DNA of 64,000 nt, from positions 1 through 64,000 of the IMG/VR virus record IMGVR_UViG_3300032236_001065, one strand, 5' to 3'. Below the pieces are notes generated by a model. The model did not search any database. It was not told where the DNA came from and saw only the letters and a list, made by a program, of their open reading frames with translations. Source of the stretch: a virus. Below, one piece after another: positions 58,419 through 62,301 of this stretch (positions within the stretch are counted from its first letter, which is position 1; each line of letters starts with the position of its first letter). A program made the position numbers and the translations under genes.

Positions 58419-58938
58419 TGAGATTGAATTAGCTGGTCAATTTGATCAAATGAATAAGGTTATTGAAGAGTTGCTAAAAGGTAATTCTCCAGCACAGATA
58501 GCCCGCTCTTTAGACCTTACCCGTGTTCAAGTAGAAAACTATATTGATGCATGGAAGGGCTTTGTCCATGACAATAAAGCTATACGTGAACGTGCAAAAG
58601 AAGCTTTAGCGGGAGCGGATGAGCATTACAATATGCTTATCAAAGAAGCTTGGGTTACATTAAACCAAGCAGATGCACAGGATGCACCTAATATTAAAGC
58701 ACAAGTAATTAAGCTTATTGCTGACATTGAAGCAAAGCGTATTGATATGTTAAACAAGGCGGGAGTTCTAGAAGATACTTCTATGGCTGACCAGATCCTA
58801 GAATCAGAAAGAAAACAAGATATTCTTGTTGGTATTCTTAGAGATGTAACTTCATCTTGTGAACATTGCAAGTGGGAAGTATCAAGAAGATTGTCAGAAG
58901 TAACTGGACAAGTAGAGGCAGTTGTTATAAGTGACTGA
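58408..58938 (+). CDS. Putative terminase small subunit
   Basis: N-terminal HTH (QIARSL.L.R.QV); overlaps terL start. Confidence 0.6.
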   Translation: MADNEIELAGQFDQMNKVIEELLKGNSPAQIARSLDLTRVQVENYIDAWKGFVHDNKAIRERAKEALAGADEHYNMLIKEAWVTLNQADAQDAPNIKAQVIKLIADIEAKRIDMLNKAGVLEDTSMADQILESERKQDILVGILRDVTSSCEHCKWEVSRRLSEVTGQVEAVVISD

Positions 58939-60772
58939 TTTTAATGTATTCCTTGATGCACTTGAGGGAGATGAGTTTTCTGAAAAACCTGCATCTCTTG
59001 AGGAGTTTGTAACAAGCAAGGATTACCTTGGTTTGCCACCATTGTCGCAATACCAGTATCAAATGATTAGGGCTTCAACACAAATTTATAAGCGTGAAAC
59101 TTTGCGTAAACTTTATGGCGAAGAAGAAGGCGAAAAGATTTGGAAGCAAACTTGTTCTGAAGTTATTTTACAGCTAGGTAAAGGTTCTGGAAAAGACTAT
59201 ACATCTACTATTGCTTGTGCCTACATGGTACATTTGCTTTTATGCCTAACTGATCCAGCAAGATATTATGGAAAGCCACCAGGCGATGCTATTGATATTA
59301 TCAATATTGCTATTAACGCTATTCAAGCCAACCGAGTATTCTTTAAAGGATTTACACAGCGTATTGAAAAGTCACCCTGGTTTCAAGGAAAGTATATTGC
59401 TAAAGCAAATATGGTTGAATTTGATAAAGCTGTAACAGTTCACTCAGGCCACTCTGAACGTGAAGCATGGGAAGGTTATAACGTTCTTGTAGTTATCCTT
59501 GATGAAATTTCAGGCTTTGAATTGGAATCAACTTCTGGCCATGAACAAGCGAAGACTGCATCATCAATTTATAAGATGTACCGTGCATCTGTAAACTCTC
59601 GTTTTCCAGATTTTGGTAAAGTAATTCTACTTTCATTTCCACGTTTTAAGAACGATTATATCCAACAAAAGTATAACGAGGCGGTGGCTGAGAAGGAAGT
59701 AGTTCTTAGACATCATAAGTTTAAGGTAGACCCAGATCTTCCAGATGGCACAGAAGGTAATGAATTTGAAATGGAATGGGAAGAAGATCACATTATTTCA
59801 TACAAAGTGCCTAGAATGTATGCTTTAAAAAGACCAACATGGGAAATTAATCCTACCAGAACTATTGATGATTTTACTATTGACTTTTATACAGACCCTA
59901 CAGATGCTCTTTCTCGCTTTGCATGTATGCCTCCAGATGCCACAGATGCGTTCTTTAAAAACCGTGCGGTTATTGAAAAAGCATTTAGTAATCCAAATTT
60001 AAATGTAGATTCTTATGGAAGATTTGATGATTCATTCAAGCCTAAAGATAACATTAAATATTTTATGCATGTTGACTTAGCCCAAAAGCATGACCACTGT
60101 GCCGTAGCTTTAGCACATGTTGACGGCTGGGTGACAATGAAAATTGGTGACAAATATAAAGAAGCAGCACCCAGAGTTGTAGTGGATGCCGTAAGATATT
60201 GGACTCCAACAGCATCAAAGTCAGTTGATTTTACAGAAGTTAAAGATTATATTACAAGCGTCAGAGATCGTGGTTTTAATCTTAAAATGGTTACATTTGA
60301 CCGATGGAACTCTCACGACATGATGCAACAATTAAATGTTCACGGGATTAAAACTGAAGTCTTATCAGTTGCAAAGAAACATTATGAGGATATGTCTCTA
60401 ACTTTAACTGAAGAAAGATTGCATGGACCAAAAATCCAATTGCTTATAGATGAATTGCTACAACTTCGTATTGTTAAAGATAAAGTTGATCACCCTAGAA
60501 AAGGTTCTAAAGACCTTTCAGATGCTGTTTGTGGTTCAATATATAATGCTATTGCAATGACCCCACCAGATTCAGATAAAGAAGTTGAAATCTATTCTTA
60601 TTCTGGTGTATTTGCAGATGAATTAGCAAAACTTAAAGAAGAGTCAGATGCCAGATTAAAGACTGTTATTAAAATGCCTGAAAAACCTGATATGCCATCA
60701 AATTTGCGGGATTTCATGGGGCTTGATGAAGATGAAGACAATATCCCTATTGACAGCTTTAGAATACTATAG
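58931..60772 (+). CDS. terL: Terminase large subunit
   Basis: GKGSGKD, LDE, HVDLA, FDRWN, DHP..GSKD.SDA. Confidence 0.92.
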   Translation: MTDFNVFLDALEGDEFSEKPASLEEFVTSKDYLGLPPLSQYQYQMIRASTQIYKRETLRKLYGEEEGEKIWKQTCSEVILQLGKGSGKDYTSTIACAYMVHLLLCLTDPARYYGKPPGDAIDIINIAINAIQANRVFFKGFTQRIEKSPWFQGKYIAKANMVEFDKAVTVHSGHSEREAWEGYNVLVVILDEISGFELESTSGHEQAKTASSIYKMYRASVNSRFPDFGKVILLSFPRFKNDYIQQKYNEAVAEKEVVLRHHKFKVDPDLPDGTEGNEFEMEWEEDHIISYKVPRMYALKRPTWEINPTRTIDDFTIDFYTDPTDALSRFACMPPDATDAFFKNRAVIEKAFSNPNLNVDSYGRFDDSFKPKDNIKYFMHVDLAQKHDHCAVALAHVDGWVTMKIGDKYKEAAPRVVVDAVRYWTPTASKSVDFTEVKDYITSVRDRGFNLKMVTFDRWNSHDMMQQLNVHGIKTEVLSVAKKHYEDMSLTLTEERLHGPKIQLLIDELLQLRIVKDKVDHPRKGSKDLSDAVCGSIYNAIAMTPPDSDKEVEIYSYSGVFADELAKLKEESDARLKTVIKMPEKPDMPSNLRDFMGLDEDEDNIPIDSFRIL

Positions 60773-61094: not shown

Positions 61095-61168
61095 TGGTCT
61101 GTAGCTCAATTGGCAGTAGCGTCCGACTGTTAATCGGAAGGTTGTAGGATCGTGCCCTACCAGACCAG
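61095..61168 (+). tRNA. tRNA-Asn(GTT)
   Basis: Acceptor TGGTCTG/CAGACCA, anticodon arm TCCGA-CTGTTAA-TCGGA, T arm GTAGG-ATCGTGC-CCTAC; no encoded CCA. Confidence 0.9.
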
Positions 61169-61203
61169 CAAATTATTAACCAACTAATAGAGAGAGTATA
61201 ATT

Positions 61204-61452
61204 ATGAATATGATGGCAGAAAAGACAGAGGAAGTAATTGATGATAAAGAGTTTGTACTTGGTCCTAGCAATCGCTGTGATTCTTGTTCTGCTGAGGCGT
61301 TAGTTTGGGTTAAAGGTGTTGCGGGAGAATTAATGTTTTGCGGACACCATTATTCAAAAAATGAAAATGCTCTGAAAGAATTTGCGTTTGAGATCATTGA
61401 TGAAAGAGAAAAGTTAATACAGAATAAATTAATTGGTGAAGCACACGCCTAA
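61204..61452 (+). CDS. Small Zn-binding protein (actinobacterial type)
   Basis: RCD.C.A.A......GEL.FCGHH; TATAAT 61197-61202 suggests a leaderless start at 61210. Confidence 0.7.
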   Translation: MNMMAEKTEEVIDDKEFVLGPSNRCDSCSAEALVWVKGVAGELMFCGHHYSKNENALKEFAFEIIDEREKLIQNKLIGEAHA

Positions 61453-61459
61453 TCAATAA

Positions 61460-61533
61460 GGAGCAATAGCTCAGTTGGTTAGAGCCCCCGACTCATAATC
61501 GGGTCGTCGTAGGTTCAAGTCCTACTTGCTCCA
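61460..61533 (+). tRNA. tRNA with CAT anticodon (Ile2-lysidine or elongator Met)
   Basis: GGAGCAA/TTGCTCC, GCTC/GAGC, CCCGA-CTCATAA-TCGGG, GTAGG-TTCAAGT-CCTAC; lacks initiator features; C29-G41 favours Ile2. Confidence 0.9.
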
Positions 61534-61537
61534 CTAA

Positions 61538-61609
61538 TTCCCGTTCGTCCAATTGGCAGGACAATGGCCTTTGAAGCCATGAATCGTGGTCCGAATCCAC
61601 GGCGGGAAG
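61538..61609 (+). tRNA. tRNA-Gln(TTG)
   Basis: TTCCCGT/GCGGGAA, GTCC/GGAC, ATGGC-CTTTGAA-GCCAT, CGTGG-TCCGAAT-CCACG. Confidence 0.9.
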
Positions 61610-61610
61610 C

Positions 61611-61730
61611 GAGGCTACAGATGGCACACCTTAGTATGGATATAGTTACACATAAACATGTACCCGAGTGTAAGAGTTCGGGGAGATAGGGCAGCGTCAT
61701 TCGGTGCTGGAATATCCATCTGTAGTCCTC
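61611..61730 (+). ncRNA. Candidate structured ncRNA, family unknown
   Basis: 14-bp closing stem GAGGCTACAGATGG/CCATCTGTAG(T)CCTC plus internal helices; abuts tRNA-Gln. Confidence 0.55.
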
Positions 61731-61758
61731 ATCTAAATGATGTTATAATTAAACTATC

Positions 61759-62301
61759 ATGACAGATGCCCACGATCAAAAAATGACTTTCACTGTTCTG
61801 GCTCATATACCAGAACATGACCCCAGGGAATCTGATCCAAATTACAAATATTTTAATGCAGCCAAAAAACGCATAAAAAAGGCGGGACTTTGGAAATGTG
61901 CCATAAATGATGATTTATGCGGTGGACAAATGGAATTACACCATACACACATAGAATTTAGCCAGATACCTAATGCTGATAAGGTTAAAGTAGAGGCATA
62001 TTTTGGGTTAAATTTCAAGGATGATCAAGAGTTTCAAGTGTGGCTAGAAAGTCCAGGAAATCTTGAGGTATTGTGTACTAATCACCATAGGACACATTAT
62101 GGGATTCACACCCTGCCCCACGCTCTTTGGGAAGCCCTGCGTTTTAGAAAAAATGGTACTTTGCCTTCTGCAGAAGTAATACCAAATGCTAAAAAGAAAA
62201 AGTTTGATATCAAAGAAGCTTTGGGTTCAAAACCAAATGCTGATATAATTAAGGCGGAGGAAACAAACAATGGCAATCAATCATCAAATAGTAACAGTTG
62301 A
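61759..62301 (+). CDS. HNH-family protein
   Basis: C.....C....ELHH, NL..LC..HH....GIH; TGTTATAAT 61741-61749. Confidence 0.7.
   Translation: MTDAHDQKMTFTVLAHIPEHDPRESDPNYKYFNAAKKRIKKAGLWKCAINDDLCGGQMELHHTHIEFSQIPNADKVKVEAYFGLNFKDDQEFQVWLESPGNLEVLCTNHHRTHYGIHTLPHALWEALRFRKNGTLPSAEVIPNAKKKKFDIKEALGSKPNADIIKAEETNNGNQSSNSNS

What the first reader, a model, noticed from the sequence alone, without database searches (positions are those of the whole stretch)
61611..61730. Unexplained ~120-nt structured RNA directly after tRNA-Gln
Seen: it starts 2 nt after the Gln discriminator. The ends pair over 14 bp with one bulge (GAGGCTACAGATGG/CCATCTGTAG-T-CCTC). Inside are TTACAC/GTGTAA, CCCGA/TCGGG (which crosses the former, so a pseudoknot or alternative fold) and the hairpin CAGCGTC-ATTC-GGTGCTG. 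ATGGATAT (61636) can pair with ATATCCAT (61712) in competition with the closing stem. No credible ORF, and GC is higher than in the flanks. Inference: a co-transcribed small RNA such as a tRNA mimic/decoy, ribozyme or switch. I do not recognise the family.
Basis: partly seen in the sequence, partly recalled or inferred. Interest (0 to 1): 0.7.

Follow-up and report, generated by a model that had tools for sequence, protein, structure and literature searches.

The report
Phage tRNA-array RNA antisense to 23S
This is a real, uncatalogued small folded RNA that lake phages of actinobacteria make alongside their tRNAs, and its only near-unchanging stretch is the mirror-image complement of helix 69 of the host's large ribosomal RNA, so the phage probably grips host ribosomal RNA with an RNA, which nobody has tested.

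Summary
Window 61613-61727 (+) is one copy of a conserved 77-136-nt RNA family: 59 unique sequences in related phage contigs. A 12-bp terminal stem is paired in 27 of 27 aligned copies, and 10 of 12 pairs change on both sides. G.U pairs fix the strand (24 G.U, 0 A.C). Copies are cut out of tRNA arrays or have their own -10 box. Rfam has nothing.

It fits the Actinomycetota version better than the E. coli type (16.0 vs 8.7 bits; 59 of 59 by duplex energy). The phage encodes WhiB. The rest of the RNA resembles, in circularly permuted order, the antisense of the adjoining 23S stretch, but weakly. Other phages carry anti-H69 hairpins after capsid genes.

Best reading (about 0.55): a trans-acting antisense RNA against host 23S. 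Binding, expression and effect are untested. This scan noted similar anti-23S phage RNAs on other DNA. My four literature searches found no description.

The parts
61538..61610 (+). tRNA-Gln directly upstream. Its 3' processing would set the 5' end of the RNA.
   Evidence: ARAGORN 61538-61610; Rfam tRNA 61538-61609, 51 bits. In 45 of 68 copy-plus-flank combinations a tRNA ends 0-2 nt before the stem.
61613..61624 (+). P1, 5' strand of the 12-bp terminal stem. G61611-A61612 can add 2 more pairs in this copy.
   Evidence: 100% paired in 27 of 27 copies, 10 of 12 pairs changed on both sides. There are 36 distinct 12-nt strands among 59 unique copies.
61628..61649 (+). Module A: reverse complement of 23S rRNA helix 69 loop, its 3' strand and the linker to H70. 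This is the only near-invariant stretch of the family.
   Evidence: Local alignment to the antisense strand of 23S. Family HMM: 16.0 bits, E 0.035 per 4 Mb, on each of 4 Actinomycetota 23S fragments. Best duplex site is H69 in 59 of 59 copies.
61629..61633 (+). Pa 5' strand (CCUUA), pairs with 61687-61691 (UAGGG). It lies inside module A.
   Evidence: 99.2% of cells paired; one pair switches A-U to G-C (18 vs 9 copies).
61641..61654 (+). P2b hairpin: UAUA / (C)AUA around the loop GUUACA (61645-61650). In this copy the closing pair is A x C.
   Evidence: Pairs 2-4 are all standard in 54 of 59 unique copies. Double changes are seen in 4 copies: G-C in L059, L080 and L057, U-A in L077.
61646..61651 (+). 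Alternative or tertiary pairing S1: UUACAC with GUGUAA (61668-61673). It crosses P3.
   Evidence: Four pairs are invariant; pair 5 is kept in 15 of 27 copies and pair 6 in 22 of 27. Unproven.
61663..61682 (+). P3 hairpin CCCGA / UCGGG with the loop motif GUAAGAGU.
   Evidence: Compensating variants in relatives (CCGU/ACGG, CACC/GGUG, ACCCGA/UUUGGGU) read from the aligned rows. Not counted with the pair tool because the register shifts between subgroups.
61687..61691 (+). Pa 3' strand (UAGGG).
61692..61709 (+). P4: CAGC / GCUG. It overlaps block B (61695-61710), which resembles the antisense of the 23S stretch that follows the hairpin after helix 69.
   Evidence: P4 pairs are nearly invariant. 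The block B alignment is weak for this copy: score 15 against a shuffle mean of 14.3.
61709..61713 (+). GGAAU, invariant in the subgroup. It aligns with the antisense of the 23S linker when the RNA is circularly permuted.
   Evidence: Only 5 nt, so little information.
61716..61727 (+). P1, 3' strand. 61728-61730 can pair with 61611-61612 in this copy.
61741..61749 (+). TGnTATAAT box after the RNA, 9 nt before the ATG (61759) of an HNH-like ORF. It marks the start of the next transcription unit.
   Evidence: Sequence. The same arrangement is seen in relatives. The ORF has a weak PHROG HNH match, E 2e-4.

Best explanation
Window 61613-61727 encodes a stable non-coding RNA of about 115 nt on the + strand.

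What is shown:
- It belongs to a family of 77-136-nt RNAs in freshwater phages of Actinomycetota.
- A 12-bp stem formed by its two ends closes a core.
- The gene sits inside or at the head of the phage tRNA array. Its ends coincide with tRNA borders, with a -10 box, or with a T-run.
- Its only near-invariant segment is complementary to helix 69 of 23S rRNA (loop, 3' strand and the linker that follows), in the actinobacterial sequence version.

What is inferred:
- The RNA is released by the tRNA-processing nucleases or made from its own promoter.
- It acts in trans by base-pairing with host 23S rRNA, either on free 50S subunits, where helix 69 is exposed, or on nascent pre-50S RNA.
- Pairing starts from the loop GUUACA and the unpaired joint. 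It must then open two short helices of the RNA's own fold (Pa and P2b) that hold about half of the complementary bases.
- Because helix 69 forms the central bridge to the 30S subunit (established knowledge), binding should block or modulate subunit joining or 50S maturation. Whether the phage uses this to shut down, redirect or tether ribosomes is open.
For: Real RNA on the + strand:
- P1 is 100% paired in 27 of 27 copies, with 10 of 12 pairs changed on both sides, and 11 of 12 in 20 more diverse copies.
- The 59 unique copies have an uninterrupted P1 of 11-15 bp, with 24 G.U and 0 A.C oppositions.

Borders (68 copy-plus-flank combinations, one of which, L095, is a false positive):
- 45 start 0-2 nt after a tRNA.
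- 20 have no upstream tRNA; most of these show a TATAAT-like box about 6-8 nt before the stem, read from the printed flanks.
- 37 are followed by a tRNA within 2-10 nt.

Antisense to H69:
- A genome scan with the family's core pattern hit a 23S gene on its antisense strand.
- In 50 of 59 copies the best local match on the antisense strand of an rRNA-operon locus (L151) starts at H69. The antisense score beats the sense score in 45 of 59.
- The family HMM scores 16.0 bits (E 0.035 for 4 Mb) on each of 4 Actinomycetota 23S fragments, against 8.7-8.8 bits on the E. coli type and Bacteroidota.
- Predicted duplex of module A: H69 is the best site in 59 of 59 copies on a Streptomyces fragment and in 57 of 59 on a whole 23S. 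Median is -25.8 kcal/mol against a shuffle mean of -15.1. It is lower than all 40 shuffles in 58 of 59, and the actinobacterial target is better than the E. coli type in 59 of 59.

Host phylum fits: WhiB is in the phage record and, among 14 control genomes, only in Corynebacterium. DUF7455 is also present.

The family's variable bases fall opposite the H69 stem bases that differ between phyla; its invariant bases fall opposite bases that were identical in every 23S examined.

Beyond module A: with module A and P1 removed, 18 representatives score highest on the antisense windows from H69 to +160 in both actinobacterial fragments tested. These are the top of 62 windows, 2.4 and 2.9 sd above the mean. 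There is no such signal on a Bacteroidota 23S. The order is collinear after circular permutation.

Recurrence elsewhere: 58 of 59 viral hits to the E. coli-type anti-H69 pattern are not rRNA genes, and 44 of 59 lie 0-25 nt after a long ORF, which is a capsid protein in 2 of 2 tested.

Feasibility: a review states that a PNA oligomer against helix 69 inhibited E. coli growth (passages of PMC7038079).
Against: - The statistics are moderate. E is 0.035 per genome for the core.
- For this very copy the similarity outside module A is at noise level: score 15 against a shuffle mean of 14.3.
- Complementarity is never perfect. The perfect 20-mer against the canonical actinobacterial H69 occurs 0 times in viral contigs.
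- The window copy has two mismatches against the Streptomyces fragment, read from the duplex structure printed.
- The one perfectly matching 23S (L152) is probably an assembly error: its variant is in 0 metagenome contigs, against at least 113 for the canonical one.
- About half of module A is paired inside the RNA's own fold.
- The capsid-gene hairpins fit the E. coli-type H69 better, yet 2 of 5 of their records encode WhiB. That the variable bases track the host is therefore not shown.
- From established knowledge: H69 is buried in 70S ribosomes, rRNA vastly outnumbers most small RNAs, and a benefit to the phage is not obvious.
Confidence: 0.55

Rival explanations
1. A stable structured RNA whose likeness to antisense 23S is a fossil of its origin (a captured, duplicated and trimmed piece of rDNA) or a coincidence. 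It would work through its own fold, for example as a protein-binding scaffold or decoy. It would resemble the small stable RNAs of unknown function in the T4 tRNA cluster (recalled, from no call).
For: The RNA has a well-kept fold of its own: P1, Pa, P2, P3 and P4. Half of module A is paired within it. The core match has E of only 0.035 per genome. Similarity outside the core is weak.
Against: P1 and the 3' domain have diverged freely, with 36 distinct P1 strands and a 3' domain of widely varying length. Module A meanwhile stays within 0-2 changes of the antisense of H69 in phages whose terminases are only 67-70% identical. Substitutions in it often give G.U against 23S (UUAG to UUGG, GAUGG to GGUGG, UAUAG to UGUAG). 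Unrelated phage elements carry the same antisense motif.
Confidence: 0.25
2. A decoy rather than a binder. In the P2 hairpin, antisense-H69 bases pair with an H69-like strand. This would imitate a ribosomal RNA feature and soak up a host factor or defence nuclease that recognises helix 69 or its neighbourhood.
For: The 3' strand of P2 necessarily resembles the sense sequence of the H69 3' strand. Phage tRNA arrays are thought to counter tRNA-cutting defences (established knowledge), so a neighbouring decoy RNA would fit the theme.
Against: The loop shows the complement of the H69 loop, not its sequence. On the transcribed strand the best matches are antisense, not sense, in 45 of 59 copies. 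No candidate factor is known.
Confidence: 0.08
3. One reading: a self-cleaving ribozyme that helps process the tRNA transcript, a tRNA-like decoy, or a ligand-sensing switch.
For: It abuts tRNAs with 0-2 nt spacing. It has a possible pseudoknot and conserved joint sequences.
Against: No match on the element to any Rfam family, which include the catalogued ribozyme and riboswitch classes, at E up to 10. Hammerhead core strings are in 0 of 59 copies. No cloverleaf. Copies with their own promoter need no cleavage. There is no constant downstream gene. The 3' domain that would have to carry a catalytic or ligand pocket is the least conserved part.
Confidence: 0.05
4. A DNA-level element: a stretch of identity to host rDNA used for recombination or integration, or as a nuclease site.
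For: The DNA holds about 20 bp nearly identical to rDNA. An HNH-like gene follows in this window.
Against: Pairing-preserving changes and G.U pairs show selection on a single-stranded + strand molecule. The HNH gene is absent after most copies, which are followed by tRNAs. The match is interrupted by a bulge or mismatches in every copy.
Confidence: 0.03

Closest known systems
Loop-presenting antisense RNAs of plasmids (CopA/CopT of R1, RNA I/RNA II of ColE1); recalled, from no call
   Same: A small folded RNA shows part of its complementary sequence in a hairpin loop. The remaining complementarity runs into the stem, so pairing could start loop-to-loop (here GUUACA and neighbours against the H69 loop) and spread.
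   Different: The target would be ribosomal RNA in trans, not an overlapping transcript. The complementarity is short (about 21 nt with a bulge or mismatches) and is embedded in a multi-helix RNA closed by a terminal stem.
rRNA-pairing guide RNAs of eukaryotes and archaea (box C/D, H/ACA, U3-type snoRNAs), including plant tRNA-snoRNA dicistronic genes released by tRNA processing; recalled, from no call
   Same: A small stable RNA with a terminal stem and a 10-21-nt stretch complementary to a conserved rRNA site. It sits next to tRNAs and is probably freed by tRNA-processing enzymes.
   Different: Neither box C (RUGAUGA) nor box D (CUGA) is in place in any of 59 copies. No known bacterial or phage partner proteins. 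The topology differs, with the complementary halves flanking the terminal stem in permuted order.
   Same: Non-tRNA stable RNAs encoded among phage tRNA genes and processed from the same transcripts; function unknown.
   Different: No sequence or structure comparison was made here. No rRNA complementarity has been reported for them to my knowledge.
Synthetic antisense PNA against 23S helix 69 (Kulik et al. 2017, seen only as cited in the review PMC7038079)
   Same: The same target helix. The review reports growth inhibition of E. coli, so H69 is reachable by an antisense oligomer in cells.
   Different: Man-made, short and unstructured, and delivered from outside. The phage RNA is natural, folded and far larger.
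Large phage-associated ncRNAs found near tRNA arrays (GOLLD, ROOL); search listing and abstract of 10.1101/2024.12.08.627333 only
   Same: Structured non-coding RNAs of phages associated with tRNA genes; function unknown.
   Different: They are several hundred nucleotides long. The Rfam scans returned no match on this element.
Anti-23S phage RNAs noted earlier by this scan on other genomes (AI notes, unchecked)
   Same: Phage-borne small RNAs, absent from Rfam, whose invariant bases complement 23S helix 69-71. Several are from lake phages of actinobacteria, some are described as permuted, and one (e1-5958883) is a 118-nt RNA at the head of a tRNA operon.
   Different: Most of those are 60-90-nt elements with a free 5' seed and a terminator, or three hairpins. 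This family has a 12-bp terminal stem and lies inside tRNA arrays. I did not see their sequences, so homology is not established.

Membership tests
tRNA / tRNA-like (Rfam RF00005, ARAGORN) | Cloverleaf with acceptor, D, anticodon and T arms | tested here: not met
   ARAGORN finds only the three flanking tRNAs. The Rfam tRNA model does not match 61611-61730 even at E up to 10.
Any Rfam 15 family | Covariance-model match at or near the gathering score | tested here: not met
   No match contained in 61611-61730 at gathering or at E up to 10 on a 1-kb stretch. The only overlap is a SNORD127 match on the minus strand, 19.8 bits against a cut-off of 45.
Hammerhead ribozyme | Core strings CUGANGA and GAAA around three stems | tested here: not met
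   Both strings together in 0 of 59 unique copies; no Rfam match.
Box C/D guide RNA | Box C (RUGAUGA) after, and box D (CUGA) before, the terminal stem | tested here: not met
   Box C in 0 of 59, box D in 0 of 59.
Box C/D guide RNA | 10-21 nt complementary to rRNA | tested here: met
   Module A pairs with H69 over about 20 nt.
Riboswitch / cis-regulatory leader | Constant position upstream of one class of gene | tested here: not met
   37 of 68 copy-plus-flank combinations are followed by a tRNA within 2-10 nt. The others are followed by different ORFs.
Trans-acting antisense RNA | Conserved complementarity to a defined target, beyond chance | tested here: inconclusive
   E 0.035 per 4-Mb genome. 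H69 is the best site in 59 of 59 copies, and the duplex is better than all 40 shuffles in 58 of 59. Support from conservation pattern and host phylum is circumstantial.
Trans-acting antisense RNA | Complementary bases accessible in the free RNA | tested here: inconclusive
   The loop GUUACA and a 7-nt joint are unpaired. CCUUA (Pa) and UAU (P2b) are paired.
Trans-acting antisense RNA | Physical binding to the target and an effect on it | not testable with these tools
RNA libraries searched did not cover the element.
Stable RNAs of phage tRNA operons (T4 species 1/2 type) | Encoded within a phage tRNA array, with borders set by tRNA processing | tested here: met
   45 of 68 copies start 0-2 nt after a tRNA and 37 of 68 end 2-10 nt before one. 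The processing itself is inferred.
Stable RNAs of phage tRNA operons (T4 species 1/2 type) | Sequence or structure relatedness to the T4 RNAs | not tested
   No comparison was made.
Phage anti-23S (helix 69-71) RNAs noted by this scan | Phage-borne, uncatalogued, with invariant bases complementary to 23S H69 and neighbours | tested here: met
   The earlier notes themselves are unchecked.

The most novel reading that the evidence does not exclude
Phages carry natural antisense RNAs aimed at the large-subunit rRNA. This family, the capsid-gene 3' hairpins found here, and the other forms noted by the scan would all grip helix 69, the hub of the intersubunit bridge. They would act on free 50S or on nascent 23S to control host ribosome assembly or subunit joining. 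That would be an RNA-on-rRNA mode of host takeover with no described counterpart in bacteria or their viruses. The constant bulge or mismatch opposite the top of the H69 stem may itself be functional.
Probability: 0.5. Interest if true: 0.9.

Novelty: categorically new. Interest (0 to 1): 0.8.

Why it matters
Bacterial and phage small RNAs are known to act on mRNAs and proteins. I know of none that targets ribosomal RNA by base-pairing, and my four literature searches returned none.

If the reading is right, helix 69 is a natural point of attack or control that phages found long before antisense drug designers did. Helix 69 is essential for subunit joining, decoding, release and recycling.

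The finding would also give a function to a class of "orphan" RNAs in phage tRNA arrays, and a directly testable handle: one small RNA, one 21-nt target.

Even if the pairing idea fails, the family is a well-supported new structured RNA. It may have arisen by capture and circular permutation of antisense rDNA, though the similarity outside module A is weak.

Tried and rejected
Expression. The run search gave 4 RNA runs holding only 4% of the sampled words. Laid on 61095-61800, their contigs cover only tRNA-Met (61455-61550), with up to 8 differences, so most of them come from cellular tRNAs. Nothing covers the RNA. These are assembled contigs, so this says nothing about absence.

Cultured relatives.
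- blastn of 61450-61760 against 50,697 phage records matched only the tRNAs.
- An exact 20-mer of the window was absent from viral contigs.
- The capsid-hairpin motif in cultured phage records hit rDNA wherever the record was annotated or I read it (7 records annotated as 23S; Pd_22F read). The other exact 20-nt hits lie in short unannotated records of 2.3-24.7 kb that I did not read.
- Two cultured phages with related capsid genes lack the hairpin.

Structure.
- RNAalifold on MAFFT alignments recovered only P1 for the diverse set.
- An all-against-all column-pair scan was too noisy to use.
- Whole-RNA duplexfold against 23S was uninformative, because long looped "duplexes" form with shuffles too. 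It beat all 8 shuffles in only 29 of 59 copies. I replaced it with the module-only test.

Perfect-match target. The 23S fragment that first drew my attention (L149 = L152) matches the family consensus 21 of 21. Its 1-nt deletion is in 0 metagenome contigs, so I do not count it.

Sense-strand likeness. An 11-mer (61702-61712) equals the sense strand of 23S about 70 nt upstream of helix 69. At E 0.3 in a 15-kb database it is at chance level.

Host handle. Homologues of the phage DUF7455 and WhiB proteins were all from metagenomes or phages, with no named bacterium. I therefore could not sample freshwater actinobacterial 23S genes.

Other checks.
- No element antisense to the 16S 3' tail is in the window.
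- Weak Rfam hits of the capsid hairpins (BjrC68, sraA, about 20 bits) are generic hairpin-plus-terminator likeness.
- The 8,495 candidate RNAs from IMG/VR in PMC10690425 may include this family.
Full report
**Setting.** The window is part of an 81.5-kb IMG/VR virus record. A large terminase gene lies at 58931-60772 (PHROG terminase, E 1.5e-17). After it come tRNA-Asn (61095-61169), an 82-aa DUF7455 protein, tRNA-Met (61460-61534) and tRNA-Gln (61538-61610). The element follows at 61611-61730. Next is a weak HNH-like ORF starting at 61759. The record also encodes a WhiB-family protein. Among 14 control genomes that family is found only in Corynebacterium. WhiB is a hallmark of Actinomycetota and their phages (established knowledge), so this is an actinophage, and its relatives come from freshwater samples.

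**Observation.** GC is 47.5% against 39.0% for the window. No ORF over 44 aa overlaps the element. The single-sequence fold is only mildly better than shuffles: z -2.73, with 3 of 200 shuffles as good. The case therefore rests on relatives.

**Relatives.** I fetched 80 loci around relatives of the terminase. nhmmer found the element downstream of the terminase on the same strand. A core-pattern scan of viral contigs gave 68 more stretches, 59 of which hold a family member. In all, 42 of the 80 terminase loci hold a copy. There are 59 unique sequences of 77-136 nt.

**Terminal stem.**
- P1 is uninterrupted for 11-15 bp in all 59 copies (12 bp in 47), with 36 different 12-nt strands.
- It has 24 G.U and no A.C oppositions. 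The molecule is therefore read from the + strand, like the tRNAs.
- On a 27-sequence alignment of the window's subgroup, P1 is 100% paired and 10 of 12 pairs change on both sides. Sliding the partner by 1-3 columns drops pairing to 25-49%.
- On 20 more diverse copies, 11 of 12 pairs change on both sides.

**Borders** (68 distinct copy-plus-flank combinations, one of which, L095, is a false positive).
- 45 begin 0-2 nt after a tRNA.
- 20 have no upstream tRNA. Most of these show a TATAAT-like box about 6-8 nt before the stem, read from the printed flanks.
- 37 are followed by another tRNA within 2-10 nt.
- Most of the rest are followed by a short T-run and the -10 box of the next gene.

So this is a discrete RNA gene, not a leader of one gene.

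**Known families.** Rfam has no match on the element, either at gathering scores or at E up to 10. Hammerhead core strings occur in 0 of 59 copies and box C/D motifs in 0 of 59.

**Inner fold.** The subgroup alignment supports:
- Pa (CCUUA/UAGGG): 99% paired, with one pair switching A-U to G-C in 9 of 27 copies.
- P4 (CAGC/GCUG): nearly invariant.
- P2: a small A/U hairpin around the loop GUUACA. Pairs 2-4 are standard in 54 of 59 copies, with double changes in 4 copies (L059, L080, L057 and L077).
- P3 (CCCGA/UCGGG): has compensating variants in other subgroups.
It remains possible but unproven.

The 3' domain varies greatly between subgroups, and short 77-80-nt forms lack P3 and P4. What never varies is a stretch just after P1.

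**The core is antisense to 23S helix 69.**
- Scanning one genome per species with the core pattern gave three hits: a family member in a MAG contig, a chance hit, and a 23S gene fragment matched on its antisense strand.
- Against a full rRNA-operon locus (L151), the best antisense-strand match of 50 of 59 copies starts at helix 69. Antisense beats sense in 45 of 59.
- The fragment proved to be actinobacterial, 94.7% identical to Tsukamurella.
- Four of four Actinomycetota 23S genes share one H69 stem version. The E. coli-type locus and every Bacteroidota 23S locus that showed the helix share another.
- The family HMM scores 16.0 bits (E 0.035 for a 4-Mb search space) on each of the four actinobacterial genes, with 21 of 21 consensus positions identical and one extra rRNA base. 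It scores only 8.7-8.8 bits on the other type.
- Module A alone prefers H69 over every other site in 59 of 59 copies (727-nt Streptomyces fragment) and in 57 of 59 (whole 2,903-nt 23S). The median predicted duplex is -25.8 kcal/mol against -15.1 for shuffles. It is better than all 40 shuffles in 58 of 59, and better on the actinobacterial version than on the E. coli type in 59 of 59.
- The positions that vary within the family lie opposite the H69 stem bases that differ between phyla. The invariant ones lie opposite bases that were identical in every 23S examined.
- Helix numbering and its role as the central intersubunit bridge are from established knowledge, not from a call.

**Beyond the core.** If the RNA is circularly permuted (3' part first, then module A), several subgroups align collinearly with the antisense of the next 100 nt or so of 23S. 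The antisense of the next 23S hairpin is missing, and P1 sits as an insertion in the linker. With module A and P1 removed, the summed scores of 18 representatives are highest for the antisense windows from H69 to +160 in both actinobacterial fragments. These are the top of 62 windows, 2.4 and 2.9 sd above the mean. A Bacteroidota 23S shows no such signal. This is suggestive only. For the window copy alone it is at noise level.

**The same motif in other phages.** A scan for the E. coli-type antisense of H69 found 59 viral stretches, only one of which is an rRNA gene. Forty-four lie 0-25 nt after the stop of a long ORF. That ORF is a major capsid protein in the two I tested. There the motif forms the 5' strand and loop of a hairpin. 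An intrinsic-terminator-like hairpin follows in the copies I read; a script found a T-run within 110 nt in 26 of 59. Eight hits, one of them the rRNA gene itself, carry the exact 20-mer. All variants fit the E. coli-type H69 better than the actinobacterial one. Yet 2 of 5 of these records encode WhiB. Whether the variable bases follow the host's rRNA is therefore open.

**Earlier notes of this scan.** After I had reached this reading, the scan's notes showed many similar, independently flagged "phage RNA antisense to 23S helix 69-71" elements on other genomes. One is a 118-nt RNA at the head of a tRNA operon. Two first-reader notes concern look-alikes of this very RNA. These are unchecked AI notes, not independent evidence.

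**Weaknesses.**
- The core match is short and never perfect. The perfect 20-mer against canonical actinobacterial H69 is absent from viral contigs.
- The perfectly matching 23S fragment carries a deletion seen in 0 metagenome contigs, against at least 113 for the canonical form.
- Half of module A is paired within the RNA's own fold.
- No RNA library covered the element.
- No cultured phage carries it.
- The benefit to a phage of binding H69 is not obvious.

**Literature.**
- Four searches found no phage or bacterial RNA described as pairing with 23S helix 69.
- A review states that an anti-H69 PNA inhibited E. coli growth (passages of PMC7038079), so the site can be reached.
- A catalogue of 8,495 candidate viral RNAs from IMG/VR (PMC10690425, passages only) may contain this motif in supplements that I could not open.

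**Verdict.** The element is a real, new structured RNA family of actinophage tRNA arrays. The best-supported mechanism, at about 0.55, is trans-acting antisense pairing with host 23S rRNA at helix 69. The main rival is an rDNA-derived RNA that now works through its own fold.

Noticed in passing
L190, L196 and 42 further loci of L190-L248 (e.g. L196:1902-1930; L190:1866-1898): A second kind of phage element. A hairpin of about 30 nt has a 5' strand and loop that are antisense to the E. coli-type helix 69. It sits 0-25 nt after the stop codon of a long ORF in 44 of 59 hits; that ORF is a major capsid protein in the 2 tested. A terminator-like hairpin follows in the copies read. 2 of 5 tested records encode WhiB.
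   Followed up: partly
L172 and L183 (unnamed Bacteroidota genome G017): The 23S gene has foreign sequence directly 5' of the conserved linker after helix 69. This is an insertion (intron or intervening sequence) at that site.
   Followed up: no
L149 = L152 (619-nt contig of a MAG labelled Parasphingorhabdus): The contig is an actinobacterial 23S fragment (94.7% to Tsukamurella) in an alphaproteobacterial bin that also holds two other 23S fragments. Its 1-nt deletion in helix 69 is seen in 0 metagenome contigs, so it is likely contamination plus an assembly error.
   Followed up: yes
L057:4374-4425: A second, truncated copy of the anti-H69 module, with its hairpin but no terminal stem, just upstream of tRNA-Met in the same contig as a full 78-nt copy.
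   Followed up: no
window 61741-61759 and the matching places in relatives: The gene after the RNA starts 9 nt after a TGnTATAAT box (the gap varies in relatives), so the mRNA would be leaderless or nearly so.
   Followed up: no
window 61459-61537 (run X17, record 1): A 241-nt contig of a freshwater metatranscriptome carries this tRNA-Met with 4 differences. It is followed by the start of the tRNA that follows the RNA in related phages. A relative's tRNA array is therefore present in an RNA library; DNA carry-over is not excluded.
   Followed up: no
window 61204-61452: An 82-aa DUF7455 protein is encoded between tRNA genes. 322 homologues at E up to 1e-5 were found; all 120 listed come from metagenome or phage contigs and none from a named bacterium.
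   Followed up: partly
L251 (Paenibacillus phage Pd_22F record, about 83.0-83.4 kb): The deposited phage genome contains a piece of 23S rDNA, probably host sequence in the record.
   Followed up: no
L148:4788-4915 (23.8-kb contig of a MAG labelled Bacteroidia): A full family member between two tRNAs sits in a bacterial bin. The contig is probably a phage fragment binned with the MAG, and the Bacteroidia label conflicts with the actinobacterial signals.
   Followed up: no
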